Positions 15,541 through 63,575 of a stretch of 64,000 nt of DNA are shown here, piece after piece. Source of the stretch: Candidatus Doudnabacteria bacterium RIFCSPHIGHO2_02_FULL_42_25 (GTDB taxonomy: Bacteria > Patescibacteriota > Doudnabacteria > UBA920 > O2-02-FULL-48-8); assembly GCA_001777665.1 (NCBI GenBank), contig MFEQ01000004.1, positions 129,331 to 193,330 of the forward strand. The letters are read 5' to 3'. A program made the translations under genes and the position numbers. The notes beneath the pieces are model-generated. The model was not told the origin of the DNA and searched no databases. It was given only the letters and a program-made list of their open reading frames with translations. The number at the start of each line of letters is the position of its first letter. The stretch's first letter is position 1.

Positions 15541-15972
15541 CTATTCTTTGTTTAAAAGTTGCTTTTCTTCAGATGTCTTTTGATCTAACAAATAAGCTAA
15601 TTTTTTTAACCGACTTTCGCTGGCAACATCAGTTTTCGGGGCTACAGGCTCTTCTTTTTTTTCAACTTTAAACGTCATGTTGGTATTCAGTTCTTCTCGT
15701 TTGAAAACTCTGACTTGCGGCTTTAAATAAAAACTAATAAAAGCTGGAAAGTAGCTAAGCATGGGTAACCCGTTAAATTTCCCGAATGCCATAAGTAACC
15801 CGAGAAGACCTATTGGAATAGCAAAAAAGAAAAAGAACACTGACAGCTTAAGCAGAGAAAAAAACATCAAAATCAATCCACCAGTCACGAGCAGGACTAA
15901 AAATTGCTTCAATGTTAAAGGACCGATCAGTTTATCTTCAACGTCAGTGAATTGTGGGACTCCAAACTGCAT
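15541..15972 (-). CDS. Small two-TM membrane protein (VirB3/PrgI-like position)
   Basis: Two hydrophobic helices. Its position before the virB4-like gene matches VirB3-like proteins. Confidence 0.4.
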   Translation of the reverse strand: MQFGVPQFTDVEDKLIGPLTLKQFLVLLVTGGLILMFFSLLKLSVFFFFFAIPIGLLGLLMAFGKFNGLPMLSYFPAFISFYLKPQVRVFKREELNTNMTFKVEKKEEPVAPKTDVASESRLKKLAYLLDQKTSEEKQLLNKE

Positions 15973-15983
15973 AGTATGCGATC

Positions 15984-16024
15984 CGAATCTACGAATTCCA
16001 TGCGAATGACACGAATATGCGAAT
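15984..16024. promoter_or_regulatory. Five phased CGAAT copies (8-11 nt spacing) 12-52 nt upstream of the 15972 start codon
   Basis: tcCGAATc, taCGAATt, tgCGAATg, caCGAATa, tgCGAATt read directly from the sequence. Confidence 0.5.
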
Positions 16025-16129
16025 TTCTGTAGATTTTTTTGTTTCTAAATGATTAAACTTGATAATATTATAACACAAGTGGCACTGAAAGGCAAAATTT
16101 GTCCATTCTTTGTCACTGATGACAATGCG

Positions 16130-16567
16130 TTAGTGTATAAAATTCCGCAGCCATTTCGTCCAGCCTTCGCCTTCATCTTCCCAAATTGACCAAAATCGGG
16201 CAGGGGTCACAATCTTTACCCCTTTAAATTTCTCTACTTTCAATAGATGCTTATCCGACGTAACCAAAAAATCAGCTTCCGAAGCAACTGCTGATTCCAG
16301 AATTTTATTATCCTCTCTATCCTCTACAATATTTAGATGCACGGAATTCTCAATTGGCCTAACTAACTCAAAAAAATATTCTAGTTTTTTTTGAAAACCC
16401 TCATCAAGAATTTTTTTATCGGCCAGAAATTTATTTTCTCTCAAAGTTGCCTTATTCGCGTAAGCTTCTATCCGGCCTGCTATTACCAAATCTAAAATGC
16501 GGTTGGCATAATGGTAAAAATCTTCCGAGGCATCGATAAGCGCATTGGTATCTATAACAACTTTCAT
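16130..16567 (-). CDS. PIN-domain nuclease family protein
   Basis: N-terminal VVIDTNALIDA and C-terminal DFLVTSDKHLL, both PIN-type motifs. Confidence 0.6.
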   Translation of the reverse strand: MKVVIDTNALIDASEDFYHYANRILDLVIAGRIEAYANKATLRENKFLADKKILDEGFQKKLEYFFELVRPIENSVHLNIVEDREDNKILESAVASEADFLVTSDKHLLKVEKFKGVKIVTPARFWSIWEDEGEGWTKWLRNFIH

Positions 16568-17313
16568 AGAGTAACAGAATTCTTATCTTTCTTATCATCC
16601 CTATCGTCCTTATCATCCCTATCATTCTTATTGTTCTTATCATTCCTACTTAACCTATTATCCTTCAAAAATTGCTGCAACCATTTTTCTCCTTCATCAA
16701 TTTGTTTTTGTCTCTGTTTAATTTTGCTAGCTACCGTTACCTCGTCTGATTGGCTATAAGATTTTTCAACAGCACGTAGTTGTTGATCGACCAAAAAAGC
16801 AGCCTGATGAATCAAGCAAATCACACAATTCGCCGCTTTTTCCCGGTCATTTAAATAGGATAAATAAGGATAATAAGTCGGATAGGTCCGATAGGTCGGG
16901 GAGTTATCATCCTTATTGTCCCTATCATCTCTATTGTTCCTATTATCCCTATCATTCTTATCTTTCCTATCATCCTTATTATTCTTATTGTCCTTATAAT
17001 ATACAATCTTTCTCACTGCTATAGATTCGGGATGATTTTTGTCCCACTGATTCAAATTTCTCTGCCTCAAAAAGTCCTCATAATCCCCTAAAAGTTCGCC
17101 CAAGGAAAATCTTGATGCGCCAAGCAAATTAATTTTAATTTTTTCTGAGGTTTTATTTTCTGATGCCTCGACAATATTTTGTTTCCCGTCGCGAGCAGCG
17201 CCAATCATTTGGGTGGTAATTTTATGGTTGGTAATATATTTTTGACAAAATTCCACAGTGTAATCATAAACAATTGTTGCTTGCTGATAAGATTTTAAAT
17301 CTTTATAGGACAT
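16564..17313 (-). CDS. Four-helix-bundle protein (TIGR02436-like) with long low-complexity K/D/N/R extensions
   Basis: N-terminal 90 aa resemble the four-helix-bundle family (MSYKDLKSYQQA...QMIGAARDGKQNIVEASE...INLLGASRFSLGELLGDYEDF). Two K/D/N/R tracts are encoded by the 9-nt repeats. Confidence 0.5.
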   Translation of the reverse strand: MSYKDLKSYQQATIVYDYTVEFCQKYITNHKITTQMIGAARDGKQNIVEASENKTSEKIKINLLGASRFSLGELLGDYEDFLRQRNLNQWDKNHPESIAVRKIVYYKDNKNNKDDRKDKNDRDNRNNRDDRDNKDDNSPTYRTYPTYYPYLSYLNDREKAANCVICLIHQAAFLVDQQLRAVEKSYSQSDEVTVASKIKQRQKQIDEGEKWLQQFLKDNRLSRNDKNNKNDRDDKDDRDDKKDKNSVTL

Positions 17314-26318: not shown

Positions 26319-28347
26319 GGATTTGTAACAATTCCTCTGGAATGGCTTTTAAGAATCTAGAAGGAATAGAAATATTTCTGCTCCCAAATTGTTTGCGGGT
26401 CTGGGCGCATACAAGAAACAGCTGTTGCTTCGCTCTCGTAATCCCCACATAAGTCAGTCTCACTTCTTCGGCAATGTCTTTTGGATCCATCATTGATCTG
26501 GCATGTGGCAAGATCCCCTCTTCCAGTCCGACCAAAAATACTGTCTCGAATTCCAGACCTTTGGCCTGGTGCAGGGTCATCAGTGTTACTTTCGGAGAAT
26601 GTAAATCCATTTCATCTACTGATGTCATGAGCGCTACCTCTTCTAAAAATTTAGTCAGGCCTTCCTTCCAATTCATTTTACGGAAACTTCCAGCGACATT
26701 GAAAAGTTCCTGAATGTTTTCCCAACGTGTTTCTCCCTCTTCCGAACCATCACGCAGAAATGCTTCGTACCCAGTCAGCTTTAAAACTTGACGCAAGATA
26801 TCCAGTAGGTCTGCACTCTCATCTAAATTTTGAATCAAATTAACAGTTTCAAAAAAATGTTTAACAGATGGTTTGAGGTCCATCAATTTCGCTAATTCTT
26901 TCTCATCCTGTTCAATCAAAGCTTCCTTCAGCAGATCAAAACTTTTCGGCCCTATTCCCCGAGGTGGTACATTAATCACTCGTTTCAAACTTACCAAATC
27001 ATTTGGATTAATCAAAAGTCTTAGGTAACTTAAAATATCCTTGATTTCTTTGCGTTCATAGAACTTTAATCCGCCAACTATTTGATAAGGGATAGAGGCT
27101 TCAATCATAACTTCTTCCAAAACCCGGGATTGGGCATGAGTTCGATAAAGTATCGCGATATTGTTCAAACGCTGTCGATTTTTGAGTTTTGGGAGAATTT
27201 TTGACCGGGCACCTGCCCGCCACGCAAGCCAGCTTGCTGGCGTTGCAGGCGGGTGACGCATAATTCGGCCAAGAATCGTGTCGTCCGTATCCTCTATCTC
27301 ATATTGCAGCTCATTCGATTTACCATCCTGGATCTCGATAATTTTGGAAGCAACAAAATAGGCTTCTGCTAATTCATCCGGGGCAGAATAAAACATCGGA
27401 ATCATGCCTTTTTCATTTTCGGTCCACAAAGTTTTTTTGTGCTGTCTCGGACTAAGTTCAATAACTTTCTGGGCGATGGATAAAATCGGTTGAGTCGATC
27501 GGTAATTTTGCTCTAACCGAATAATTTTGGTTTCCGGATAATCTTTTTCAAAATCTAAAATATTTTGGAGGTTCGCCCCTCGAAAACCATAAATAGCTTG
27601 CGCATCGTCCCCCACCACAAAAATATTCTGATGATTGGCAACCAACATTTTCGTGAAAATATACTGGACGTGATTCGTATCCTGATATTCGTCGACCAAA
27701 ACATACTGCCAAAGATTTTGGTATTTCAAAAGCACGTCATCATGTTCTTGAAAAATTCTCACTGGTAACACCAAAAGATCTCCGAAATCGACGGCATTGT
27801 TTTTTCGAAGTTCAGTCTGATACATTTCGTAAACTTTTTTTACATTCAAATCAAAAGTAGTTTGGGTTGGTAAATCATCCGGCTCTTCTAAATTATTTTT
27901 GGCTCGATCTATAAGATGCGCAAACAATGATGGCTTAAATTTCGTCGGATCAATTCTTAAACGTAACAAAATATCTTTCAGCAAACTTTCTTGGTCATCA
28001 CTGTCATAAATGAGGAAATCCCTATCCAAACCAACTAAGGCACATTCTTGCCTTAGAATTCGGACACCTATTGAATGAAAAGTTCCCATCGTAGGGAGTT
28101 CCGATTTTCCGATCAATCCGATTATCCGAGTTTTCATTTCCCCAGCCGCCTTATTAGTAAAAGTTACAGCTAAAATACTATGTGGTTTTAACCCCAATTT
28201 TTTAATCAAATATACTATGCGCATAGTCAAAGCCCTAGTTTTACCACTGCCCGCACCAGCCAAAATTAACACCGGCCCTAGCGGCGCCTTTACAGCTTCT
28301 AATTGAGCTTGATTTAAACCGATTTGTTCAGCAGAATTTTTAGTCAT
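26305..28347 (-). CDS. uvrD: ATP-dependent DNA helicase UvrD/PcrA, carrying an in-frame GC-rich insertion
   Basis: Walker A AGAGSGKT, DEYQDT, motif IV ILYRTHAQSR, motif VI. The extra segment MRHPPATPASWLAWRAGARS is encoded by the element at 27205-27254. Confidence 0.9.
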   Translation of the reverse strand: MTKNSAEQIGLNQAQLEAVKAPLGPVLILAGAGSGKTRALTMRIVYLIKKLGLKPHSILAVTFTNKAAGEMKTRIIGLIGKSELPTMGTFHSIGVRILRQECALVGLDRDFLIYDSDDQESLLKDILLRLRIDPTKFKPSLFAHLIDRAKNNLEEPDDLPTQTTFDLNVKKVYEMYQTELRKNNAVDFGDLLVLPVRIFQEHDDVLLKYQNLWQYVLVDEYQDTNHVQYIFTKMLVANHQNIFVVGDDAQAIYGFRGANLQNILDFEKDYPETKIIRLEQNYRSTQPILSIAQKVIELSPRQHKKTLWTENEKGMIPMFYSAPDELAEAYFVASKIIEIQDGKSNELQYEIEDTDDTILGRIMRHPPATPASWLAWRAGARSKILPKLKNRQRLNNIAILYRTHAQSRVLEEVMIEASIPYQIVGGLKFYERKEIKDILSYLRLLINPNDLVSLKRVINVPPRGIGPKSFDLLKEALIEQDEKELAKLMDLKPSVKHFFETVNLIQNLDESADLLDILRQVLKLTGYEAFLRDGSEEGETRWENIQELFNVAGSFRKMNWKEGLTKFLEEVALMTSVDEMDLHSPKVTLMTLHQAKGLEFETVFLVGLEEGILPHARSMMDPKDIAEEVRLTYVGITRAKQQLFLVCAQTRKQFGSRNISIPSRFLKAIPEELLQIHEDF
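27205..27254. repeat. GC-rich palindromic element, family 1, in frame inside uvrD
   Basis: Its reverse complement shares 32 identical nt with the 24667 copy. The CDS reads through it without a stop. Confidence 0.7.
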
Positions 28348-28370
28348 GCAATGTATTATCGCACAGTATC

Positions 28371-28448
28371 TACGAACTTACGAAATTATTACGAAAATAC
28401 GAAAAAAATTATCCCTTTCGTACTTTCGTAGGCTTTCGTATTTCGTAG
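28371..28448. promoter_or_regulatory. Palindromic array of four TACGAA(A) repeats followed by four TTCGTA repeats, 24-100 nt upstream of the uvrD start
   Basis: TACGAAc tTACGAAa ttatTACGAAaaTACGAAa aaaattatccc TTTCGTAc TTTCGTAggc TTTCGTAt TTCGTAg, read directly. Confidence 0.6.
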
Positions 28449-28864
28449 ATTGAACTTGTGGATATTCCCACAAATAATCTCCTTTAAAAATAGACTTTTT
28501 TGAACTTATATACAAATGTCAGGGTTAAGAGTGTTGACGAGATAACTCAATTTTGGTAACATACGGACTATCGGTTGAAATGATAGTCGAACGAATATTA
28601 GCCCAAAAATTGATTAATTTTTCAAAAAATCCTCCCGCTAGTTTTCTGAAAAATCTGACCAAAAATTGGAGTTTATAAGGAGTTCTTATTTCCCCCCTTT
28701 CTTCCTTCAAGCGAAAGTTCTCTAAGTCCACGAAAGAAATTTCCTCTACGTGGAAATCAAACAGTAAGTTTACAATCCACCCCTTCAAGTCTTTACACTC
28801 AAGACATCTTCTTCCCCTCTCCCTTTCAGACTATTTCGCCAGATTTAGTTTTGAATTCATTGTC

Positions 28865-31836: not shown

Positions 31837-32354
31837 ACGGGCCTTTCTAATATATATTCAATAAATTTATTAATGGTGGTGTGATCAACCTCTTTCTCTT
31901 CTGGAAACCTGAACCCGAGTGTATCTAATAAATCCAAAGAAAATTTATCTAAGATCTTATAGTCAGCTGGGTAATAATCAGGATGGTTCAAGTTATGCAA
32001 AAAATCGATCAGTAAATCAAAAGCAACAGAATTTGGATGTTCATCAGCAGTCATTTTCAGCATCAATTCTGCTCCATAAAGCCCGATCGCCATTTTCTGC
32101 AAGTCTTGATGAATACTGTTGTATTGTTTGACAGGTTTGGCTCCAATCAGAACTGGGAAATTCCCACCGGCGACATCAACTTCACAAAGCGATAGATCCT
32201 GTAAAGCAAACGCCAGTTTACTTTTGGGTAAACGAATAGACTTAGCCAAAATCCGTACTTTACCTAAATCTTTAGTCCATAATGTCAGGATCTGGTCCGC
32301 TTCTTTATAGTTTTGTTTTTTGAGGATTACTCCGGTGTGTTTGCGATATTTCAT
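31818..32354 (-). CDS. recO: DNA repair protein RecO (short form, 178 aa)
   Basis: The N-terminal OB-fold segment resembles RecO (GVILKKQNYKEADQILTLWTKDLGKVRILAKSIR). It lacks the usual C-terminal zinc finger. Confidence 0.55.
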   Translation of the reverse strand: MKYRKHTGVILKKQNYKEADQILTLWTKDLGKVRILAKSIRLPKSKLAFALQDLSLCEVDVAGGNFPVLIGAKPVKQYNSIHQDLQKMAIGLYGAELMLKMTADEHPNSVAFDLLIDFLHNLNHPDYYPADYKILDKFSLDLLDTLGFRFPEEKEVDHTTINKFIEYILERPVWTTKF

Positions 32355-35300
32355 TCTAATTTTATGGAGATTTTTTTACCTTCTATTTCCACTTCCTGCC
32401 CACCCTGACCCTTTTGTATTTCTTTCACATATGTCTTTTTACGATCAAATAACTCAAAGGCAACACTTAGTTCACCATCATTAGTATCATAAGTCAAATT
32501 TATGACTTCGCCAACCTTTAATCCTGATTTTTTGCGCATATCTTGGACCAATCGTTCTAATTCCGCTGCCAAGCCTTCTTTCTTGAGTTCAGGAGATATA
32601 GTCGAATCAAACTTTACAGTGTACGCATCTTTAACATTATCAAACTCAGCTTGTTTGAAATTCAACTCATCTAGTAAAATCTGTTCGAGCTCAGGAGTGA
32701 GTTGATTTTTCCCAACCGTTGAATATTTAAGAACGCCCAATGGTTGACGAAGCTTTATATTTGCAGCTTTTCTAGCACTCAATCCTTCGACAACTAATGT
32801 TCTCACCTGCTCCATAAAGTACAAAACGCTTGGCTGTGAAATTTGGTCTTTAGTTTCAGGCCAACTTGCTAAGTGTACTGATTCTTTATCTCCCTCAGCT
32901 TTTAACTCCTGCCACAATGACTCGGCCACGAAAGGGACAAATGGTGCAAGTAAAATGCTTAAAGTTTTTAAAACTTTATTTAGCGTCTGATAAAAAGCCG
33001 GGCCTTTACGATCTCTTGAACGTCGAACATACCAAGTCGACAGTTCGTTTATAAATACTTCAATTTCCCGAGAAGCATGGAAAGCATCATAAGCCTGAAG
33101 ATACTCCGTGACCTGGTTCACCAACTTCTGTGTTCGCGTTAACATCCACTGATCTAAAATATCTAATTCTTTAACTTCTTTACTTGCATCCCACTGGTCA
33201 TGGTTAGCATAAGTAACGAAAAACGAAAGTACATTCCAAAGAATTACGAAATTTTTTCGCAAGACTAATTCAGCATCCCTTTCTCCAAATCGTTTATCAT
33301 CACCTGGTTGATTCACTGAATACATATACCAACGTAGAGAATCAACACCATATTTGTTAATCACAGACCAAGGATCGATGACGTTCCCTTTAGACTTGCT
33401 CATCTTTTGACCCTTTGAGTCTAATAAGAATCCTAAGCTAATAACATTTTTATAAGATGGCCCTTTATCAAGTAATGTCGAAACTGCAAGTAATGTATAA
33501 AACCAACCACGGGTTTGATCAATGGCTTCTGAAATAAAATCGGCAGGAAATTGTTCTTTGTTCTCAATCTTCTCTTTATTCTCCATCGGATAATGCCACT
33601 GGGCAAAAGGCATAGATCCGGAGTCAAACCAGACATCCATAACTGCTGGGACTCTTTTAGCATCCTTATTACATTCTTTGCATTTTAAAACTACCTCATC
33701 GATATAAGGTCTATGAATATCAATAATAGCAACGTTCATTTCAAATGCTTGACCTTTGTGTGGATATGAGCGATCAGATCCAAAGTGTTTCTGCAAAGAA
33801 TACAAAGGATCCCCATGGCTAACTATGAGAATATTTTTTCCCTGATGTTTTTCATTCAAATCATTTATTAAACTAAGCATTCTGTCTCTTGCCTGAGTCC
33901 AAGTTTCTCCGCCTTTTGGAGCATCAGACCAGCGAATAGCATGCGGAAAATCGCGGTCGAACTCATCGTAGGTTCGACCATCATATTCACCACAATTCAG
34001 CTCATTTAAGCGTGGATCGATAATTAGTTCGACTTTGAGTTTTTTGTTAACAATTTCCGCAGTCTGCATCGTTCGGTTAAATTCAGAGCAGACGATCAAA
34101 TCGAATTTATCTAGCTTAGCTAATTCATCAGCTGTTGCTTGAACCAGCTTTTGACCTTTTTCAGTTAGCTGATCCATTTCGCTACCTGGTTTGGAACTAC
34201 AAACTCGTTTAACATTTGTATAAGCCTCGCCGTGTCGTAGGAAATAAAAATTATTTTTGGCGAGCCCTAAGTCCTTAATGCTACCTGGAACCGTAAGATG
34301 CTCTTGATCACATGTCCAGATTGGTAAAGGTGTCCCCCAATATCGTTCTCTAGAAATAGCCCAATCTTTCACCCCATCCAACCATTCTCCGAATCGTCCA
34401 TGTTTGATATAGTCGGGTGTCCAATTTATTTGTTCGTTATTTGCCTTTAGTTGATCTCGCAATTTACTCATAGCAATAAACCATGAATCTCTAGCGTAAT
34501 ACAGAAGTGGTGTGCCACATCGCCAACAATGAGGATATTCGTGTTTATATTTTTCAATCTTAAGCACCCGGTCCCCTAACAATTCAAAAATCTTTTGATC
34601 AGTTTTGTGATCTTTAACATACATTCCTGCCAAACCTGCGACTTCAGGAGTAAATCTTCCAGTTTCGTCCACCGTGTGATGCTTGGGTAATCCTAACTCT
34701 TCACCTAATTGATAGTCATCCTCACCATACATAACTGCTGTATGCACAACACCTGTTCCATCTTCAGTATTTACAAAATCTGCAGCATAAACTTTATAGG
34801 ATTTATCCGATTTGAGTTCAGGAATATCAAATAGTGGTTCGTATTCCAAACCTACAAGATCCTTACCCTTATATTGCTGTTTTGTGCGATCGTCAATTTT
34901 AGTAATATCCGAAAAAGTAGAATTCACTCGGTCTTTCGCAACAATATAAAATTCTCCATCCTTTTCGACTTTGAAATAATCAATATCTCCCCCCACTGCT
35001 AACGCAACATTCCCAGGCAGAGTCCAAGGAGTTGTGGTCCAAGACAAAATATAAGTGTTGGGTTCACTCCTTAACTTAAACTTAACGTAAACAGATTGAT
35101 CAGAGACAGTTTGATAACCCTGTGCAACTTCATGCGAAGAAAGTGCTGTGCCACATCTTGGGCAATAAGGCACGACTTTGTGGCCTAGATAAATTAATTT
35201 TTTATCGTTAATCTCCTTTACTATCGACCACACGGATTCGATATAGGAATTAGAGTAAGTAATATAGGGATTATCCAAATCAACCCAAAAGCCCATTCGC

Positions 35301-35725
35301 TTAGTGAGTTTTTCCCAATCCTCTTTGTATTGCCACACAGATTCTCTGCAAAGTCGATTAAATTCAATAATGCTGTCACGCACATTTGGTTTAATCGATT
35401 CGATTTGTTTTTTTCCCGAAATTCCAAGTTTTTTTTCAACTTCTAATTCGACTGGGAGTCCGTGTGTGTCCCAACCACCTTTACGAGAAACGAATTTCCC
35501 AAGCATTGTCTGGAATCTTGGAAATAAATCTTTAAATGCTCTTGCTTCTACGTGGTGAATGCCTGGTTTGCCATTTGCTGTGGGAGGACCTTCAAAAAAC
35601 ACAAACCTTTCACCGTTTTTGGTTTGCTCCAAAGATTTGGCAAAAATTTGGTTCTCTTCCCAAAATTTTAAAATCTCTTCCTCTAGCTCTGGAAACTTTG
35701 GTTTGGGCTCTATAGGCTTAAACAT
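32351..35725 (-). CDS. ileS: Isoleucine--tRNA ligase with an inserted histidine-phosphatase (PGAM-like) domain
   Basis: Catalytic signatures (PPTANGKPGIHHV, KMSKS), CP1 editing domain, WCxxC...HRPYID zinc region. Residues about 491-661 (nt about 33745-34255) carry the RHGE and SHGD motifs of histidine phosphatases. Confidence 0.9.
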   Translation of the reverse strand: MFKPIEPKPKFPELEEEILKFWEENQIFAKSLEQTKNGERFVFFEGPPTANGKPGIHHVEARAFKDLFPRFQTMLGKFVSRKGGWDTHGLPVELEVEKKLGISGKKQIESIKPNVRDSIIEFNRLCRESVWQYKEDWEKLTKRMGFWVDLDNPYITYSNSYIESVWSIVKEINDKKLIYLGHKVVPYCPRCGTALSSHEVAQGYQTVSDQSVYVKFKLRSEPNTYILSWTTTPWTLPGNVALAVGGDIDYFKVEKDGEFYIVAKDRVNSTFSDITKIDDRTKQQYKGKDLVGLEYEPLFDIPELKSDKSYKVYAADFVNTEDGTGVVHTAVMYGEDDYQLGEELGLPKHHTVDETGRFTPEVAGLAGMYVKDHKTDQKIFELLGDRVLKIEKYKHEYPHCWRCGTPLLYYARDSWFIAMSKLRDQLKANNEQINWTPDYIKHGRFGEWLDGVKDWAISRERYWGTPLPIWTCDQEHLTVPGSIKDLGLAKNNFYFLRHGEAYTNVKRVCSSKPGSEMDQLTEKGQKLVQATADELAKLDKFDLIVCSEFNRTMQTAEIVNKKLKVELIIDPRLNELNCGEYDGRTYDEFDRDFPHAIRWSDAPKGGETWTQARDRMLSLINDLNEKHQGKNILIVSHGDPLYSLQKHFGSDRSYPHKGQAFEMNVAIIDIHRPYIDEVVLKCKECNKDAKRVPAVMDVWFDSGSMPFAQWHYPMENKEKIENKEQFPADFISEAIDQTRGWFYTLLAVSTLLDKGPSYKNVISLGFLLDSKGQKMSKSKGNVIDPWSVINKYGVDSLRWYMYSVNQPGDDKRFGERDAELVLRKNFVILWNVLSFFVTYANHDQWDASKEVKELDILDQWMLTRTQKLVNQVTEYLQAYDAFHASREIEVFINELSTWYVRRSRDRKGPAFYQTLNKVLKTLSILLAPFVPFVAESLWQELKAEGDKESVHLASWPETKDQISQPSVLYFMEQVRTLVVEGLSARKAANIKLRQPLGVLKYSTVGKNQLTPELEQILLDELNFKQAEFDNVKDAYTVKFDSTISPELKKEGLAAELERLVQDMRKKSGLKVGEVINLTYDTNDGELSVAFELFDRKKTYVKEIQKGQGGQEVEIEGKKISIKLE

Positions 35726-35742
35726 CTATATGATCCTAATAT

Positions 35743-35774
35743 GCGAATTAATGCTAATCAGCGAATTTGCGAAT
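35743..35774. promoter_or_regulatory. Three GCGAAT copies 18-50 nt upstream of the ileS start
   Basis: atGCGAATta ... caGCGAATttGCGAATct. Same motif family as the 28371 and 15984 arrays. Confidence 0.4.
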
Positions 35775-36170: not shown

Positions 36171-36453
36171 ATTAGTAGATTAGCATATCATTCGTAGATT
36201 TGGATCATGTTAAAAATAAAAAGCAGATTCTTGCGACTCCTCGCGGAGGGTACCATCGCAATTCTCTTGCTCTCAATTATGCCTGTTACGTTAGGCTTAC
36301 GGACAGTTCTAGTTTTACCCCATCTCGAACGGATGTGAGAGATCCCTCTTAAGAGCGATTTCTCGCTGTGCTCGAAATGGTTATTAAATTTTTCTGTCAG
36401 CTTCACACCCGGCTTGATTTGCCGGTATCGCTTTCACTTATTATACCATAAAA

Positions 36454-38133
36454 TCACATTTCCTCTAAGGGATCAATGCCGAGTAGCTGGAGTCCTTTGG
36501 AAAGCGTGTTTTTTGATAGATTTATCAGAGCCAATCGGGAATTTTTTATTTGTTCATCCGGTTCCGCTATTACTGGGCTCTCATGATAAAACTTGTTAAT
36601 CAGACCGGCTAAGTCATAGAGATAGTTAGCCAACACATTCGGCATGTATTCTTTCATAGCATCAACCACGACCTCATCAAAGGTCGAGATCTTGAACAAA
36701 ATCTCTCTCTCTGTTGGAGTTAAGGATGTAGAATGTAGTACGTAGGATGTAGGGCCAACCTTGCGGAGAATACTTGCCAATCGTGCGTATGAATATTGAA
36801 TATACGGACCGCTGTTTCCTTCGAAGTCCAGTGCTTTGTCCCAATCAAACTCTATATCACTGTGTCGGTTGTGTGATAAATCAAAATATTTAATCGCTCC
36901 GATGGCCACAGCATTCACGACATCTTTCGCTTTTGCTAATTCTGGATTTTTATCTGCAATAATTTTTGCGACTTTTTCTTTCGCTGCCGCCAGCACTTCC
37001 TCTACCAGAACCATGTTACCCTTTCTAGTAGACAGCGCTTGGCCTTTGAAACTCATAAATCCATAATCCACATGCACGCCCTCATCATCTTTCATGTATC
37101 CTAGTTTATGCAGAATGGCGAACAGTTGTTTGAACGCATGAGACTGCCTGACATCCACGACATATAATTGTTTGGTAAACCCTTGGCTTTGACGAAAAAT
37201 AAAAGTCGCCAAATCGCGCAACAAATATGTGGTGCCACGATCCGACTTCACTATCAACCCTATCCCCAATCCTTCTGGTTCCAAATCTACAATTTGCGCG
37301 CCTTGAGATTCTTTCAAAAGATTTTTTGATTTGAGATCCATCAGAACTTTGGGCATTTTGTCGTGATAGAAACTTTCGGGCCAATGGTTATCGAACGGTT
37401 CTATGTTCATCAATTCGTTGATAGTCAAAAATTTCTTCATACTCAAATCCACAAACTTTGTCCAAAGTGCGTGGTTCTGAGTATCACCATGTTCTAATTT
37501 GACAAACTCTTGTTTTGCCTCTTCTCGAAGTTTAGGGTCTGCTTCAGCTTCTTCATTAATCTTTACATATAATTTATTTAACTCACCGATTGGATCATTT
37601 TCCAGTAATCCTTCATTGCCATATTTTTTGTAAGCCAGCAAAATCAATCCGAACTGCGTACCCCAATCTCCCATATGAGTATCGGATTGAACTTGATAAC
37701 CTAAATATCGGAGCATCCGCAAAATAGCGTCACCGATGATAGCAGTGCGCAAATGCCCAATATGCAAAGGCTTCGCAATATTTGGCTGGAAATATTCGAC
37801 TAACACGCGTTCTTTTGTTACGTGTTCCATGTTACGTGCCACATGTTCAACCAAATAATCATTCTTCAAAGTAAAGTTAATAAAACCAGGGGCAGCGACT
37901 TCTACTTTTTCAAACTCTTGGCTTTTTAATTTTTCCGCCAAAGTCCGCGCTAAGTCCATTGGCTTTAAGTCCGCGTTTTTTGCTAAAATCAAAGCCGCGT
38001 TGGTGGCATAGTCCCCCAACCTCGATTCGGCAACAGAAACTGTAATTTTCGATTTCTGATCCTCACCAACTGTAATACCCGCAGATTGCACTGCGCTTAT
38101 AATCATTTCTAGTATCTTATCTTTCATTAGCAT
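36454..38133 (-). CDS. argS: Arginine--tRNA ligase
   Basis: Class I HIGH (PLHIGHLR) and MSTR (KMSK-like) motifs, N-terminal add-1 domain, C-terminal DALR anticodon-binding domain. Confidence 0.9.
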   Translation of the reverse strand: MLMKDKILEMIISAVQSAGITVGEDQKSKITVSVAESRLGDYATNAALILAKNADLKPMDLARTLAEKLKSQEFEKVEVAAPGFINFTLKNDYLVEHVARNMEHVTKERVLVEYFQPNIAKPLHIGHLRTAIIGDAILRMLRYLGYQVQSDTHMGDWGTQFGLILLAYKKYGNEGLLENDPIGELNKLYVKINEEAEADPKLREEAKQEFVKLEHGDTQNHALWTKFVDLSMKKFLTINELMNIEPFDNHWPESFYHDKMPKVLMDLKSKNLLKESQGAQIVDLEPEGLGIGLIVKSDRGTTYLLRDLATFIFRQSQGFTKQLYVVDVRQSHAFKQLFAILHKLGYMKDDEGVHVDYGFMSFKGQALSTRKGNMVLVEEVLAAAKEKVAKIIADKNPELAKAKDVVNAVAIGAIKYFDLSHNRHSDIEFDWDKALDFEGNSGPYIQYSYARLASILRKVGPTSYVLHSTSLTPTEREILFKISTFDEVVVDAMKEYMPNVLANYLYDLAGLINKFYHESPVIAEPDEQIKNSRLALINLSKNTLSKGLQLLGIDPLEEM

Positions 38134-38903: not shown

Positions 38904-38932
38904 TTGCGAAAGATTCAATTTTCGTATATAAT
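38904..38932 (+). promoter_or_regulatory. Promoter TTGCGA-17nt-TATAAT for ssrA
   Basis: The hexamers sit 10 nt upstream of the mature tmRNA 5' end. Confidence 0.5.
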
Positions 38933-38941
38933 ATTCGTCCT

Positions 38942-40306: not shown

Positions 40307-40498
40307 ATGCCCAAGCAGAAAACCAATAAAAGAGTGGCCAAAACTTTCTGGAGAACGGGAAGCGGCAAAATCATGCACCGCAAATCCGGCCAGGCTCATT
40401 TTAATTCTAGAGAATCCGGTAAAACCACCAAGAATAAACGTCGAGATTTAGTAATGCACAAGACCAACATAAAGCTTGGTCTAATCATGGGAAAATAG
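40307..40498 (+). CDS. rpmI: 50S ribosomal protein L35
   Basis: MPKQKTNKRVAKTF...KIMHRKSG pattern; 63 aa. Confidence 0.9.
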   Translation: MPKQKTNKRVAKTFWRTGSGKIMHRKSGQAHFNSRESGKTTKNKRRDLVMHKTNIKLGLIMGK

Positions 40499-40560
40499 AT
40501 TTACGAAATACGAATCAGTACGAATATACTAATGGTTTACCGATTCGTATATTAGTAACA
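40497..40560. promoter_or_regulatory. TACGAA x3 plus an inverted TTCGTA in the rpmI-rplT spacer
   Basis: tTTACGAAATACGAAtcagTACGAAtatactaatggtttaccgaTTCGTAtatt, read directly. Confidence 0.45.
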
Positions 40561-41648: not shown

Positions 41649-42306
41649 GTCTCTTACGAGACGATCAGTCTGTCAGTATTTTGATAAGGCTAATCACGAT
41701 TTTAGTGACGCCCTACGAACTGGCAAACTGGATTCTATCCCCTGTCCAGAACAAATCTTCGGTGGTTAAGCCTAGTGATTGTGTTCCAGGCCGGAAATAA
41801 GCAACGTTTAAATATCTTTCTATCGATACAACATTAAACCATCCTTCATATGCTAGGATTGTTTAACCTCCTAAACTCGCTGCTTATTTGTCATTTATTT
41901 TTGTTTCTTGAAGCCTTGATATATCGCTGGTTTGATCCGTTTGGACCGGATGCTATGCGAAACTCAACTCTCTACATATATTATAGCATATATTACTCCG
42001 ACGCGCAAGAGCTTCAGTGGATTTTCATTCCAAATCTTGCGGTCGGAGCCCCGACTTCAATAAAAAATTAATTACAGACGTCGGGGTAGCAAATTTTTCG
42101 AGATTTGTCTAGTACTTGACACTCGTTTCTTGTAAGAATAGTATTAGCTTACGATCTTTAAAGTTTTTAACTAATCATTTCTAGTGCAAGCAGGGTGGAA
42201 TTCCCTCACTGTGCCGCAACCGTAAAGTCGGGACCGAAAAATGATTATCAACGCTTTACACACTCCCGAGCAGGGGTGGGCGGATTTTTTGTTCAAAAAA
42301 AATTCT

Positions 42307-46796: not shown

Positions 46797-46907
46797 TTAG
46801 TCGCCAGCGAGGGTTTCCCAAAGAATGTCAATGTCTTCCTTGCTCCAGGGCTTCGGAGTCTTCGGCTTTTCCGCGCCTTTTTTCGGACGTCCTTGCTTCT
46901 TTTCCAT
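46797..46907 (-). CDS. Small lysine-rich protein (36 aa) with GGAGG SD and its own terminator
   Basis: MEKKQGRPKKGAEKPKTPKPWSKEDIDILWETLAGD. The overlapping 66-aa ORF (46718-46918) reads through the terminator and lacks an SD. Confidence 0.35.
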   Translation of the reverse strand: MEKKQGRPKKGAEKPKTPKPWSKEDIDILWETLAGD

Positions 46908-47140
46908 ATTTCCTCCATTCGTAATTCGTTAAATTCGTAGTTTGTAGAAGATTGCCAACCATGGATCTGTTCTCGGCAATCAAAAAACCGCCTTTTCTAT
47001 AGCGGCAGTGGAAACTTCTACAAACTCGAAACTACCGCTTTAGGTGGTAAGGCGGCTAAGCAACAAACCTGAATTTGTCACATATTTCGTGTTCATAAAA
47101 AGATTATATAATGTTCTGTTTTAATGGTCAAGAGTTAGGA

Positions 47141-50299: not shown

Positions 50300-50363
50300 T
50301 TATGTTCTAATTATACCATAAATGATAAAAATAGTGGTATAATAACCCTATTCGTAAGCCCTA

Positions 50364-51146
50364 ATGAAACTAAATTTCGAATTATTTAATCCCAAGGGAT
50401 TTATCTCTGAACAACAGACAGATTTGATTATCACTGTCGTGGCTTTATTGCTGATTGCAGTCATCCCAGCCCTAGTCTTAACTTTTACCTTTGCCTGGAA
50501 ATACCGTGCTAGCAAGCAGTCAAAATTCACACCCAATGTCTCCGGTAATACGAAGTTACAACTAGGCTGGTTAGGGTTTCTCATTCTCATCATCATATCG
50601 GTCGGCACTCTTGCTTTCAAAAATAGTCACGCTCTGGATCCTCGAAAACCGATTCAGTCTGAAAAACAGGCAATCACAATCCAAGTCGTAGCGCTGGAAT
50701 GGAAATGGTTGTTTATATATCCGAACTCAAGTATCGCTAGTGTAAACTTTTTACAATTCCCTGAAGATACCCCGATCAATTTGGAGATTACGGCTGATGC
50801 CCCGATGAATTCGTTTTTGATTCCACAGCTAGGAGGCCAGATGTATGCAATGAACGGGATGAAAACTTCACTCCATATCATGGCCAATGAAGTTGGCGAT
50901 TATCGAGGGTTTTCATCCAACATTAGTGGGGAGGGATTTTCTGGGATGAAATTTACCGCCAGGGCTAGTTCAGACCGAGATTTCAATGCTTGGGTAGAAA
51001 CAGCTAGAATTAGCAGTGGTAGTTTAAATTACAATGAACTGGCTAAACCAAGTAAAAATAATTTACCTACTACTTATCTGGTGGCACAAACCGATTTATT
51101 TGATTCAATTGTTATGAAATATGGGGAGCCAATACATGTTCGGTAG
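50364..51146 (+). CDS. cyoA: Cytochrome bo3 ubiquinol oxidase subunit II (CyoA-like)
   Basis: Two N-terminal TM helices, then the cupredoxin-like domain (VALEWKWLFIYPN, IPQLGGQMYAMNGM). Confidence 0.8.
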   Translation: MKLNFELFNPKGFISEQQTDLIITVVALLLIAVIPALVLTFTFAWKYRASKQSKFTPNVSGNTKLQLGWLGFLILIIISVGTLAFKNSHALDPRKPIQSEKQAITIQVVALEWKWLFIYPNSSIASVNFLQFPEDTPINLEITADAPMNSFLIPQLGGQMYAMNGMKTSLHIMANEVGDYRGFSSNISGEGFSGMKFTARASSDRDFNAWVETARISSGSLNYNELAKPSKNNLPTTYLVAQTDLFDSIVMKYGEPIHVR

Positions 51147-53004: not shown

Positions 53005-53570
53005 GTCATACTGAAACTCACGAAAGATCACTACTAGGATTCTGGATTTACCTCATGACAGATCTGTTGTCATTTGGAGTTTTGTTCGCGACTTACGCTG
53101 TGCTCTCTCCAAATACCGCAGGTGGGCCAAATGCCAAAGAACTTTTCAGTTTACCGTTTGTATTGATTGAAACTTTAATCTTACTGACGAGTAGTTTTAC
53201 TGTGGGGTTAGCGATGCTGGCTGTTTTCAAACAAGCCAAACAACAAGCATTGATTTGGTTTGGTGTCACATTTCTTTTAGGACTCACTTTCCTAGGCATG
53301 GAATTGTATGAGTTTAACAATCTCATTGCTGAAGGTGCGTCTTGGGAACGCAGCGCTTTTCTGTCTTCCTTCTTCACTTTAGTCGGAACTCACGGCTTGC
53401 ATATTTCCGTGGGCTTACTTTGGATGGCAGTTTCAATGGTCATGATTTGGAAAAGGGGGCTGACGCCGTTTATCAATTCCAAATTAACCAGACTCGCTCT
53501 GTTCTGGCATTTCTTGGACATCGTCTGGATTTTTATTTTTACAATTGTCTATCTTCTCTCTTATGTTTAA
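53001..53570 (+). CDS. cyoC: Cytochrome o ubiquinol oxidase subunit III
   Basis: Five-TM subunit III pattern (FWHFLDIVWIFIF). Confidence 0.85.
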   Translation: MSHTETHERSLLGFWIYLMTDLLSFGVLFATYAVLSPNTAGGPNAKELFSLPFVLIETLILLTSSFTVGLAMLAVFKQAKQQALIWFGVTFLLGLTFLGMELYEFNNLIAEGASWERSAFLSSFFTLVGTHGLHISVGLLWMAVSMVMIWKRGLTPFINSKLTRLALFWHFLDIVWIFIFTIVYLLSYV

Positions 53571-53892
53571 ATCATACTTATTAGGATTTATACTTTCGAT
53601 CCTCCTGACAGTCGCAGCTTATTTATTAGTAGTGAACAACATGCTGTCGCAGGGGGTTCTGATCATCGTCATTCTGGCCCTAGCTGTCATCCAATTATGG
53701 GTGCAACTAATTATGTTTTTACATTTAGGCCAGGAAACTGGCCCGCGATGGAAATTGATTAGTTGGATCTCGACTGCCTCCGTCCTTTTGATTGTCGTTA
53801 TCGGTTCCATAGTGATTATGAACAATTTAAATTATCACGTGCCATCAGACCAAGAAATTATTGAAAATGAAGGAATACATCAATCTCACTAA
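53545..53892 (+). CDS. cyoD: Cytochrome o ubiquinol oxidase subunit IV
   Basis: Three-TM small subunit in the cyoD position. Confidence 0.7.
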   Translation: MSIFSLMFKSYLLGFILSILLTVAAYLLVVNNMLSQGVLIIVILALAVIQLWVQLIMFLHLGQETGPRWKLISWISTASVLLIVVIGSIVIMNNLNYHVPSDQEIIENEGIHQSH

Positions 53893-60283: not shown

Positions 60284-60925
60284 TTATTTGTCCTTTAAGA
60301 TAGCCTCCCCTTTTACGAACCAAGAGATACCAAATAGGATGATAGCCAAAGATTCTAGCCAAAATACTGGTTGCCAATTAAAAATTAGTGAATCAACAGG
60401 CAAAAACGCAGTTAGAATAATCAGGGCGATACAAGTTAATATTCCGTAGCCGCACACTGTGTAAACCATATTGCGCTGGATTTTCTGTAGCGTTGGCTGT
60501 TGTTTGGGATTAGTTTTGCGAAATAACTTCAATGAATAAAAAGCCAGAGTCAAAAACAGACCCATGGCGAATACATAATGGAGTTGACCGATAAAAATTC
60601 GCAAAGTGTCGGCGTGCTGTGGACTAGTCGGAAATAAAGCTGTGCCGATGGCAAAAATAGTGCCAATTTTCCCCGCGACTTCATCTATCCATTCATAGCC
60701 ACGGTAAGACATCAGAAAAATACCAATCGCACAAAGACTTCCGACAAACACATCTCGCATTACAGTATAGTAATAAGCACTGATTGAAGACTCAATACCA
60801 GAATCCACTAGTATCGTTTTTCCAATAACCAAAACAAACGGAAGTAATATTCCGATCACTCCAATCGCTTTTCTTAAGCCCAGATAAGAAAGCACTAATG
60901 AATCATTTTGCGTCGAATGGCTCAT
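60284..60925 (-). CDS. Membrane protein (6 TM), unknown function
   Basis: ORF with many hydrophobic helices. Confidence 0.45.
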   Translation of the reverse strand: MSHSTQNDSLVLSYLGLRKAIGVIGILLPFVLVIGKTILVDSGIESSISAYYYTVMRDVFVGSLCAIGIFLMSYRGYEWIDEVAGKIGTIFAIGTALFPTSPQHADTLRIFIGQLHYVFAMGLFLTLAFYSLKLFRKTNPKQQPTLQKIQRNMVYTVCGYGILTCIALIILTAFLPVDSLIFNWQPVFWLESLAIILFGISWFVKGEAILKDK

Positions 60926-63194: not shown

Positions 63195-63269
63195 TGGCTC
63201 CGACGGTAGGATTCGAACCTACGACCTGGGGATTAACAGTCCCTCGCTCTACCGCTGAGCTACGTCGGA
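63195..63269 (-). tRNA. tRNA-Asn (anticodon GTT)
   Basis: Reverse complement: acceptor TCCGACG...CGTCGGA-G-CCA, D-arm GCTCAGCGGTAGAGC, anticodon loop CUGUUAA, T-arm GTAGGTTCGAATCCTAC. Confidence 0.85.
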
Positions 63270-63515
63270 ACGTGGTGTAAATTTTTTCACAAACAATCTG
63301 CCTTGATAACTTTTTAATTGCTTTTCTCGTTTCAAAGCTTCTTGGCGTGTGCCAACCGTTTCAGAATAGATAAGTTGCCACTCGCCGTCAAACCTTGAAG
63401 TATAACCCTTAAAAGTTTTTGAATTATGGAGATTTAATCGCACTTCGAGATTTATGGTTTGACCGATATAGATTTTACTAGCAGATTTATTATAAATTGC
63501 GTAAACAGTATACAT
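63249..63515 (-). CDS. GIY-YIG nuclease family protein (88 aa)
   Basis: VYAIYNK...IYIGQT...LHNS GIY-YIG core. The 3' end overlaps the tRNA-Asn 5' end by about 20 nt. Flanked by a duplicated tRNA segment. Confidence 0.65.
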   Translation of the reverse strand: MYTVYAIYNKSASKIYIGQTINLEVRLNLHNSKTFKGYTSRFDGEWQLIYSETVGTRQEALKREKQLKSYQGRLFVKKFTPRSDVAQR

Positions 63516-63518
63516 AAG

Positions 63519-63575
63519 TCCCTCGCTCTACCTCCGCCAGCTGGCGGAGAGCTACGTCGGAATAATAAACGAATA
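63519..63575 (-). pseudogene. Partial duplicate (pseudo-tRNA) of the tRNA-Asn 5' half, interrupted by an 18-nt perfect palindrome
   Basis: agtccctcgctctacc + tccgccagctggcgga + gagctacgtcgga, against the intact copy agtccctcgctctaccgctgagctacgtcgga at 63238-63269. Confidence 0.6.

What the first reader, a model, noticed from the sequence alone, without database searches (positions are those of the whole stretch)
15984..16024. Recurring CGAAT/TACGAA motif arrays 10-90 nt upstream of unrelated start codons
Five CGAAT copies at 8-11-nt phasing lie 12-52 nt before the VirB3-like start at 15972. Three GCGAAT copies lie 18-50 nt before ileS (35743-35774). TACGAA x3 plus an inverted copy lie before rplT (40497-40560). 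ATTCGT x2 lies before the 36-aa ORF (about 46921-46945). One copy lies before the GxxExxY gene (about 36188). With the uvrD array, this looks like a lineage-specific promoter-proximal element, such as a UP-like element, a global regulator site, or an unconventional core promoter. Helical phasing of about 10 nt in the secretion-locus copy supports protein binding on one DNA face.
Basis: seen in the sequence. Interest (0 to 1): 0.55.

Follow-up and report, generated by a model that had tools for sequence, protein, structure and literature searches.

The report
Heptamer-array intergenic repeat element family
The CGAAT clusters are real and far beyond chance, but they are copies of a short repeated DNA element (arms of about four WTTCGTA heptamers, often in inverted pairs) that fills the gaps between genes in a scattered subset of ultra-small Patescibacteria, and they are not a promoter or regulator signal.

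Summary
Clusters of this kind are about 100 times more frequent than in shuffles. The true unit is the heptamer WTTCGTA (reverse complement TACGAAW).

The window comes from a Candidatus Doudnabacteria genome (Patescibacteria). Across this window, three other Patescibacteria genomes and 30 metagenome contigs, the heptamers form arms of about 33 nt. Copy spacing within an arm is fixed at 8 / 10-11 / 7-8 nt. Arms are usually in inverted pairs with the same end facing outward.

Outer ends abut stop codons as often as start codons. Arms also lie between convergent genes and between ribosomal-protein genes. They occur in both orientations relative to transcription. Within a genome they share spacer sequences.

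Four sister Doudnabacteria keep the prgI promoter but lack the array. In the window the array sits downstream of that promoter, at about +36 to +76 of the leader.

My best reading (about 0.55) is a new REP/BIME- or MITE-like dispersed repeat that depends on an unidentified heptamer-recognising protein. The UP-element, regulon-operator and core-promoter readings are not supported.

The parts
15984..16024 (-). Solo arm of the repeat family. Five copies on the prgI strand read ATTCGCA, ATTCGTG, ATTCGCA, ATTCGTA, ATTCGGA. Spacing is 8, 9, 11, 8 nt and the outer end lies 11 nt from the prgI ATG.
   Evidence: The alignment shows it as a 49-58 nt insertion relative to four sister genomes.
16067..16095 (-). 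Sigma-70-type promoter of the prgI operon (TTGCCT-17-TG-TATAAT). It places the array at about +36 to +76 of the leader.
   Evidence: 10 of 12 matches plus TG. The -10 region is conserved in L206-L209.
15541..15972 (-). prgI (PrgI family, VirB3-like), the first gene after the array. It is followed by TraC-like and VirB4-like type IV secretion genes.
28371..28404 (+). Left arm of a full inverted-pair unit. TACGAA x4 on the + strand, which reads TTCGTA x4 toward uvrD.
28416..28448 (+). Right arm of the same unit (TTTCGTA x4, then G). The two arms are 11-13 nt apart and are predicted to fold as an imperfect hairpin of about 35 bp.
   Evidence: One search gives a fold energy of -40.4 kcal/mol, z = -8.05.
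28355..28360 (-). -10-like GATAAT, 7 nt before the uvrD ATG. It lies downstream of the unit, so at this locus the unit is upstream of the core promoter.
   Evidence: Sequence, and alignment with L207.
35743..35774 (-). Solo arm between the PD-(D/E)XK_3 stop codon and the ileS start. ATTCGC x3 on the gene strand with spacing 8 and 18, so one copy has been lost.
   Evidence: L002 has an array at the corresponding place.
36190..36196 (+). Single heptamer copy (ATTCGTA) 17 nt upstream of the PD-(D/E)XK_3 gene.
38921..38938 (+). Two copies (TTCGTA and ATTCGT) flanking the TATAAT -10 of the tmRNA promoter (TTGCGA-17-TATAAT).
40502..40525 (+). Arm of three TACGAAW copies that starts 3 nt after the rpmI stop codon. 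Its outer end faces rpmI.
   Evidence: L020 has the same placement between rpmI and rplT.
40543..40549 (+). Single inverted copy (ATTCGTA) 31 nt before the rplT ATG. It is the remnant partner arm.
46917..46939 (+). Arm of three copies (ATTCGTA, ATTCGTT, ATTCGTA, then G). Its inner side touches the Shine-Dalgarno sequence of the 36-aa ORF on the - strand.
50350..50356 (+). Single copy (ATTCGTA) between a TATAAT and the start of the COX2-like gene.

Best explanation
The arrays are copies, half-copies and decayed copies of a dispersed intergenic DNA repeat family.

**Anatomy (shown).** Each arm is about 33 nt. It holds four WTTCGTA heptamers at start-to-start spacings of 8, 10-11 and 7-8 nt, usually followed by G. 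Complete units are two arms in inverted orientation, with the same end facing outward, around a variable loop of 1-85 nt. Units occupy the short spacers between genes, running from stop codon to start codon.

**How it spreads and persists (inferred).** The family spreads or is homogenised at the DNA level. It depends on an unidentified protein that recognises the heptamers, such as a transposase-like or recombinase-like mobiliser or a host DNA-binding factor.

**Consequences (inferred).**
- Because the units lie inside transcription units, paired arms would give mRNAs an imperfect hairpin of about 30 bp between cistrons. As with REP/BIME or Correia elements, this could secondarily affect mRNA processing or stability.
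- The prgI copy is a solo arm that entered the 5' leader of the type IV secretion operon in this species only. It is probably neutral or mildly modulatory there.
For: **The arm architecture is highly regular.**
- 49 four-copy arms share the 8 / 10-11 / 7-8 spacing. They come from the window, L020, L064 and 30 of 119 metagenome loci.
- The base after the last copy is G in 31 of 49 arms.
- None of 120 viral contigs matched by a similar pattern has this architecture.

**Position shows no link to promoters.**
- Outer ends lie within 15 nt of a stop codon in 19 arms and of a start codon in 17 arms.
- Units fill four intercistronic spacers of a ribosomal-protein operon in L288.
- Solo arms point downstream 12 times and upstream 10 times, and 6 lie between convergent genes.

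**The repeat behaves as a DNA-level element.**
- Three L288 units share arm spacers but have different loops.
- Two L269 units are the same two-module element in opposite orientations relative to the genes.
- Variable positions are more alike within a contig than between contigs: 0.41 against 0.32, permutation p < 0.0005.
- L271 and L270 carry near-identical copies.
- Sense and antisense strands fold equally well: 11 against 12 units, p = 0.49.

**The arrays are recent and the distribution is patchy.**
- L206-L209 (PrgI 62-78% identical) have no array in about 75 kb. They keep the prgI promoter, and the window carries a 49-58 nt insertion.
- At uvrD, the 77-nt unit sits between a palindrome conserved with L207 and the -10 element.
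- Only about 4 of 80 Patescibacteria ileS loci carry arrays.

**Decay series.** Arms with one-base-changed heptamers (TACAAAT, TACTAAT, ATTAGTA) and with 1-2 surviving copies exist in L288, at window ileS and at window rplT.
Against: - No target-site duplication was found beyond TA, which is part of the heptamer itself.
- No autonomous element was found, meaning an ORF flanked by outward-facing arms. No candidate mobilising or binding protein was identified.
- Between genomes the spacers differ completely while heptamers and spacing are kept. That pattern needs continuing selection by a trans-acting factor, and would also fit pure binding-site arrays.
- Some genes recur next to arrays in distant genomes: prgI in the window and L297, rpmI/rplT in the window and L020, ileS in the window and L002, L16 twice, and a VirD4-like gene twice. 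This hints at functional preference rather than random insertion.
- Arm detection required intact TTCG[TC] cores, which inflates the apparent conservation of the heptamers.
- Only fragments of genomes were examined, never a whole genome.
Confidence: 0.55

Rival explanations
1. The arrays are operators for a global DNA-binding regulator. An oligomer, for example a ribbon-helix-helix protein of the omega or MetJ type, would bind four direct heptad repeats and repress or activate the adjacent genes.
For: - The heptamer and its spacing are strictly kept while spacers vary between genomes.
- Genomes show their own preference at the W position, TTTCGTA or ATTCGTA.
- Copies flank the -10 of the tmRNA promoter and overlap the -35 region of uvrD.
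- prgI, rpmI/rplT, ileS, L16 and a VirD4-like gene recur next to arrays in distant genomes.
Against: - Arms abut stop codons as often as start codons.
- Arms lie between convergent genes and between ribosomal-protein cistrons.
- Position relative to the promoter is inconsistent: downstream of the promoter at prgI, upstream of the -10 at uvrD.
- The arrays are absent at orthologous promoters in four sister genomes.
- Arms within a genome share their spacers.
- No regulator gene was found in the window apart from an ECF sigma/anti-sigma pair.
Confidence: 0.15
2. The arrays are an RNA-level cis-element under direct selection. Paired arms would form an intercistronic hairpin that brings stop and start codons together. 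The hairpin would serve as an RNase III-type processing site, a stability element or a translational-coupling device. Solo AUUCGUA arrays would bind an RNA-binding protein near the ribosome-binding site.
For: - The arrays lie inside leaders and intercistronic spacers, so they are transcribed.
- The arms are in exact register and fold strongly: z = -8.05 and -7.47.
- The base of the hairpin lies 2-10 nt from both the stop and the start codon.
Against: - There is no sense-over-antisense folding advantage: 11 against 12 units, p = 0.49.
- Solo arms occur in both orientations relative to transcription, 12 against 10.
- The same unit occurs in both orientations in L269.
- A structural hairpin would not need a fixed primary sequence, and the spacers are kept non-complementary.
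- Solo arms such as prgI and ileS cannot fold on their own.
Confidence: 0.15
3. The arrays are an unconventional core promoter or UP-like element, read by the housekeeping RNA polymerase or by an alternative sigma factor. In this reading TTCGTA acts as a -35-like hexamer and the TAnATT junction between copies acts as a -10-like hexamer.
For: - The TTCGTA of the first copy lies 17 nt upstream of the junction between the third and fourth copies.
- Start codons often lie 2-9 nt after the arm.
- At uvrD, TTCGTA sits 18 nt upstream of GATAAT.
- An ECF sigma factor is encoded in the window.
Against: - Orientation relative to genes is random, and arms face stop codons and convergent genes.
- tRNA and tmRNA promoters in the window are ordinary sigma-70 type.
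- The prgI array is downstream of a conserved strong promoter.
- No -10-like hexamer sits at a fixed offset from the arm.
- The sequence is not an A/T tract of the UP-element type.
Confidence: 0.03
4. The arrays are chance clusters or products of simple tandem-repeat slippage, with no common origin.
For: - Many hits of the pattern scan are plain (TACGAAT)n tandem repeats.
- Heptamer tandem repeats are common in these genomes.
Against: - The arrays exceed shuffle expectation 17- to 100-fold.
- The spacing is non-periodic yet conserved, and the spacers vary in sequence.
- Arms occur as inverted pairs in register.
- The same architecture is seen in distant lineages.
Confidence: 0.02

Closest known systems
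REP / BIME / REPIN elements (Enterobacteria, Pseudomonas, Stenotrophomonas)
   Same: - Short extragenic repeats found singly or as inverted pairs.
- They sit between genes, often just after stop codons.
- Each lineage has its own family, and distribution is patchy.
- Copies are co-transcribed and can form hairpins.
- The outer copy here ends in ...CGTAG, which recalls the GTAG of some REPs (review PMC3184786).
   Different: - A REP unit is itself a G+C-rich imperfect palindrome. Here each arm is an A+T-rich array of four direct heptamers that cannot self-pair.
- No RAYT transposase was seen.
- The GTAG here lies at the 3' outer end of the arm, not 5' of a palindrome.
Bacterial MITEs, for example Correia/NEMIS elements of Neisseria
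   Same: - Non-autonomous units of 60-150 bp with terminal inverted repeats.
- Multiple homologous copies per genome, in both orientations.
- Copies lie in intergenic and co-transcribed positions.
- The RNA is predicted to form a long stem-loop (PMC3184786).
   Different: - No target-site duplication could be shown, only TA, which is part of the motif.
- The internal region is variable rather than conserved.
- The inverted repeats are built from iterated heptamers.
- No parent insertion sequence is known.
Foldback-type transposons and transposon ends with iterated subterminal binding sites (my own knowledge, not tested here)
   Same: Long inverted arms made of short repeated motifs that serve as multiple binding sites for the mobilising protein.
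   Different: These are known mainly from eukaryotes (FB, hAT, CACTA) or as larger sites of about 22 bp (Tn7, Mu). No transposase is linked to the element here.
Heptad operator arrays of the omega repressor (inc18 plasmids) and MetJ met-boxes (my own knowledge)
   Same: Arrays of 7-8 bp units in direct and inverted orientation, bound cooperatively by small dimers. This is the closest known model for how a protein could read such arrays.
   Different: - Those arrays are contiguous and confined to promoters of a defined regulon.
- Here the spacing is 8 / 10-11 / 7-8 nt and the positions are not promoter-specific.

Membership tests
UP element (alpha-CTD site) | A+T-rich tract located at about -40 to -60, upstream of the -35 of the promoter it serves. 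| tested here: not met
   The prgI array lies downstream of the promoter at 16095..16067. The motif has a CG core.
Regulon operator of a global transcription factor | Sites are confined to promoter or 5' regions and hold a consistent position relative to the core promoter. | tested here: not met
   19 arms abut stop codons and 17 abut start codons. 6 solo arms lie between convergent genes. The array is downstream of the promoter at prgI and upstream of the -10 at uvrD.
Regulon operator of a global transcription factor | Sites are conserved at orthologous promoters in related genomes. | tested here: not met
   L206-L209 lack arrays at prgI, and L207 lacks one at uvrD. There is partial recurrence in distant genomes: L002 ileS, L020 rpmI/rplT and L297 prgI.
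Helically phased direct-repeat sites (OmpR/PhoB type) | Repeats spaced at 10-11 bp, so that they lie on one face of the DNA. | tested here: not met
   Spacing is 8, 9, 11, 8 nt at prgI. The family pattern is 8 / 10-11 / 7-8.
Core promoter | Fixed orientation and distance relative to the transcribed gene. | tested here: not met
   12 solo arms point downstream and 10 upstream. The same unit occurs in both orientations in L269. No transcription-start data are available.
MITE | Terminal inverted repeats flanking a short core that encodes no transposase. | tested here: met
   Paired arms with outward-facing ends, giving units of 60-150 nt.
MITE | Flanking target-site duplications (direct repeats). 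| tested here: inconclusive
   Only TA is shared on both sides, in 15 of 17 units, and TA belongs to the heptamer. No longer duplication was found.
MITE | Multiple homologous copies per genome. | tested here: met
   L288, L269, L271, L270 and L020 carry copies that share spacers and flanks.
MITE | A related autonomous element with the same ends. | tested here: inconclusive
   None was found in the fetched fragments. Whole genomes were not available.
REP/BIME | Each unit is a G+C-rich imperfect palindrome of 20-40 nt that forms its own stem-loop. | tested here: not met
   Arms are direct heptamer arrays, A+T-rich and not self-complementary.
REP/BIME | Extragenic copies, single or in clusters of alternating orientation. 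| tested here: met
REP/BIME | An associated RAYT (Y1 transposase) in the genome. | not testable with these tools
   No whole genome was accessible. Pfam scans of 50 of the window's ORFs found none.

The most novel reading that the evidence does not exclude
The heptamer arrays are the recognition sites of a dedicated, still unknown sequence-specific protein. Together they would form either a new class of mobile element that thrives in streamlined Patescibacteria genomes, or a gene-boundary 'punctuation' system. In the second case the system would mark stop-start junctions inside operons for transcript processing or insulation.
Probability: 0.2. Interest if true: 0.75.

Novelty: new variant of a known kind. 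Interest (0 to 1): 0.5.

Why it matters
Patescibacteria have tiny, tightly packed genomes and are usually thought to carry little repetitive or selfish DNA. They have few regulators, and almost nothing is known about how they control gene expression.

- A dispersed repeat with such a regular heptamer architecture sits at gene boundaries, even inside ribosomal-protein operons and in front of type IV secretion genes. This implies an unknown trans-acting protein and a source of rapid, lineage-specific change in leaders and intercistronic regions.
- The result is also a practical warning. Motif enrichment 'upstream of start codons' in compact genomes can come from intergenic repeats rather than from promoters.

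Tried and rejected
1. **LexA/SOS box.** I considered this because uvrD and a Y-family polymerase are in the window. The targets are not SOS-like, the motif is not a palindromic box, and the key paper on the Patescibacteria SOS network was not held in the library.
2. **ECF-sigma or T7-like promoter.** Rejected on orientation and position.
3. **A fixed -10 hexamer just upstream of the first copy.** None found; TANNNT reaches at most 10% at any offset.
4. **RNA-specific selection.** Sense and antisense fold energies show no difference.
5. **Target-site duplications.** None beyond TA.
6. **Autonomous element flanked by arms.** None found.
7. **Heptamer in the literature.** Searches for TACGAAT/ATTCGTA, and for repeat elements in Patescibacteria, found nothing relevant.
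8. **Viral contigs.** The pattern scan returned tandem repeats or chance hits only, and served as a negative control.
9. **The 249-aa gene next to the locus as a candidate factor.** It looks like a four-helix-bundle protein with low-complexity inserts, not a DNA binder.
10. **A tRNA directly after one L269 arm.** ARAGORN did not confirm it.

Full report
**1. The observation**

The sequence at 15984-16024 reads CGAATctaCGAATtccatgCGAATgacaCGAATatgCGAAT, which is five copies at spacings of 8, 11, 9 and 8 nt. The gene to its left (15541..15972, - strand) is a PrgI-family protein. It is followed by TraC-like and VirB4-like genes of a monoderm-type type IV secretion system.

- ileS, with GCGAAT x3 at 35743-35774.
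- rplT, with TACGAA x3 plus one inverted copy.
- The 36-aa ORF, with three copies rather than two at 46917-46939.
- The PD-(D/E)XK_3 gene, with one copy at 36190.
- uvrD, with 4 + 4 inverted copies at 28371-28448.

These arrays are far beyond chance:
- TACGAA is the most enriched intergenic 6-mer, at 19 observed against 3.2 expected.
- Clusters of at least three copies occur 6 times, against 0.06 in shuffles.
- A three-copy pattern matches 9 times, against 0.53 expected.

Aligning 48 copies shows that the unit is the heptamer T[A/G]CGAA[T/A], which reads WTTCG[T/C]A on the other strand.

**2. Source organism**

The window is 100% identical to contig MFEH01000005.1 of GCA_001779895.1 and to Rifle aquifer metagenome contigs. 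Its closest relatives by IleRS and PrgI are Candidatus Doudnabacteria and other Patescibacteria.

**3. The finding's own locus**

A strong sigma-70-type promoter, TTGCCT-17-TG-TATAAT, lies at 16095..16067 on the prgI strand. Four sister Doudnabacteria (PrgI 62-78% identical, same gene order) conserve this -10 region and the start of the leader. They go straight from ...agaaaccaaaagaaat to the ATG. The window has an extra 49-58 nt there, and that extra sequence is the array.

The array is therefore a species-specific insertion at about +36 to +76 of the transcribed leader. No array was found anywhere in the roughly 75 kb fetched from the four sister genomes.

At uvrD, a palindrome (TTGTGG-N6-CCACAA, 28457-28474) is conserved with L207. 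It is separated from the -10-like GATAAT and the ATG by the 77-nt double array. L207 has no array at that place.

**4. The same motif elsewhere**

Among 80 Patescibacteria ileS loci, arrays were found in only a few genomes.
- L002 (Doudnabacteria): arrays lie between a leader terminator and the ileS ATG.
- L020 (Harrisonbacteria): the layout is infC-arm-85 nt-arm-rpmI-arm-rplT.
- L064 (Liptonbacteria): an arm ends 3 nt before an RNase J-like gene.
- All other loci combined are close to the shuffle expectation.

A pattern scan of metagenome contigs returned 119 loci. Thirty of them carry arms with one fixed architecture. Including L020, L064 and the window, I collected 49 such four-copy arms.

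In these arms the copy starts are spaced 8, 10-11 and 7-8 nt apart. Spacer sequences vary, and the next base is G in 31 of 49. The prgI array fits this pattern at 9, 11 and 8 nt, with one extra copy upstream. A similar pattern scan of viral contigs gave 120 loci, and none has this architecture. The architecture is therefore not an artefact of the search pattern.

**5. Anatomy and position**

Arms usually come as inverted pairs. The fourth copy faces outward, and the loop between the arms is 1-85 nt long. A complete unit fills a whole intergenic spacer.

The L288 ribosomal-protein operon shows this clearly. A typical spacer reads: stop codon, 4-9 nt, arm, loop, arm, 5-8 nt, ATG. Four of its spacers are filled in this way, one of them by a heavily decayed copy.

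Across 90 non-tandem arms, the positions are as follows:
- The outer end lies within 15 nt of a start codon in 17 arms and of the preceding gene's stop codon in 19 arms.
- Solo arms between co-directional genes point downstream 12 times and upstream 10 times.
- Six solo arms lie between convergent genes.
- No -10-like hexamer sits at a fixed offset from the arm.

These facts explain the apparent 'upstream of start codons' enrichment. It is a by-product of an element that occupies short intergenic spacers in a compact genome.

**6. DNA-level or RNA-level?**

Paired arms are in exact register and fold strongly as RNA, with z = -8.05 for the uvrD unit and -7.47 for L020. However, the sense and antisense strands fold equally well across 23 units whose transcription direction is known (11 against 12, p = 0.49).

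In L269, two units are the same two-module element in opposite orientations relative to the genes. In L288, three units share arm spacers but not loops. Variable positions are more alike within a contig than between contigs (0.41 against 0.32, permutation p < 0.0005). Decayed copies are common.

Together these point to a repeat that is copied or homogenised as DNA. Its heptamers and spacing are kept over long evolutionary distances, and that implies a trans-acting protein that reads them. I could not identify that protein. No target-site duplication was found beyond TA, and no ORF bracketed by arms was found.

**7. Genes next to the arms**

The adjacent genes are mostly housekeeping genes. They include L35, L16 (twice), L24, L6, S3, S1, RNase J, MreB, GAPDH, pyruvate kinase, Pol III alpha, RNase H, NusB, UvrA and UvrD. 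There is also a second PrgI and two VirD4-like genes. The recurrence of prgI, rpmI/rplT and ileS across distant genomes is the main observation that keeps a functional reading alive, whether as a regulator site or an RNA element.

**8. Verdict**

The promoter, UP-element and regulon-operator interpretations are not supported.

The best-supported explanation (about 0.55) is a previously undescribed dispersed repeat family in Patescibacteria, REP/BIME- or MITE-like, with heptamer-array arms. It meets some but not all of the defining features of MITEs and REPs as summarised in PMC3184786. I therefore rate it a new variant of a known kind. Searches of the held literature found no description of it.

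Noticed in passing
window 36195-36445 (- strand); L001 3690-3912; L002 9640-9892: A leader of about 230 nt upstream of ileS is conserved in three genomes. In the window it lies upstream of an inserted PD-(D/E)XK_3 gene plus ileS. It has its own TATAAT, a conserved AUC at one position, a CGATGGTACC block and a terminator. It looks like a divergent Ile T-box, but Rfam reports nothing even at E <= 10.
   Followed up: partly
window 32351-35725 (- strand), IleRS residues 493-649: The isoleucyl-tRNA synthetase carries a histidine-phosphatase (His_Phos_1) domain inserted inside the catalytic domain (Pfam E = 3.7e-35).
   Followed up: no
L013 3126-3157, L008 7743-7771, L035 5499-5529, L064 12748-12779, L070 (three sites), L039, L033, L062, L041; window 36723-36753 (argS) and 54167-54191: Tandem heptanucleotide repeats of 3-5 copies, with a different heptamer in each genome, are inserted in frame in surface-loop positions of aminoacyl-tRNA synthetase genes of many Patescibacteria. 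They encode K/Q/N/S-rich peptides. They are reminiscent of the cyanobacterial STRR heptamer repeats.
   Followed up: partly
L214 702-729, 2850-2877, 3297-3324; L251; L237; L232; L314 3050-3070 and 4281-4301: Perfect (TACGAAT)n tandem arrays occur at several sites in single high-GC (55-67%) metagenome contigs, some inside long ORFs. I do not know whether they are related to the Patescibacteria arms.
   Followed up: partly
window 28457-28474: The palindrome TTGTGG-ATATTC-CCACAA upstream of uvrD is conserved in the sister genome L207, where it overlaps the -35 region. It is a candidate genuine operator, displaced about 83 nt by the repeat unit in the window.
   Followed up: partly
window 63195-63560: A GIY-YIG nuclease gene (63249..63515, - strand) sits directly upstream of tRNA-Asn. 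It is preceded by a 14-nt duplicate of the tRNA 5' end (ttccgacgtagctc), which looks like the scar of an insertion at the tRNA gene.
   Followed up: no
window 50364-54718 and 42159-42288: A haem-copper oxidase operon (COX2-like, COX1, COX3, UbiA-family prenyltransferase) is present, which is unusual for a Patescibacteria genome. An AdoCbl riboswitch match falls just under the gathering score (49.3 against 50 bits).
   Followed up: no
window 16564-17313 (- strand), tandem repeats at 16579-16997: A 249-aa four-helix-bundle-like protein carries long D/N/K/R-rich inserts encoded by 9/18/27-nt tandem repeats. The gene is absent from the syntenic position in sister genomes L206-L209.
   Followed up: partly
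window, many gene starts (for example 36454..38133 argS, 60284..60925, 26305..28347 uvrD): -10-like hexamers end 6-8 nt before the ATG and there is no Shine-Dalgarno sequence. This suggests that leaderless or very short-leader mRNAs are common in this organism.
   Followed up: no
window 46797-46907 (- strand) and 46939-47026: A 36-aa ORF has a strong Shine-Dalgarno sequence, a GRPKK (AT-hook-like) motif and its own terminator. Next to it is a perfect 11-nt inverted repeat (gtttgtagaag / cttctacaaac) enclosing 66 nt, possibly a small structured RNA.
   Followed up: no
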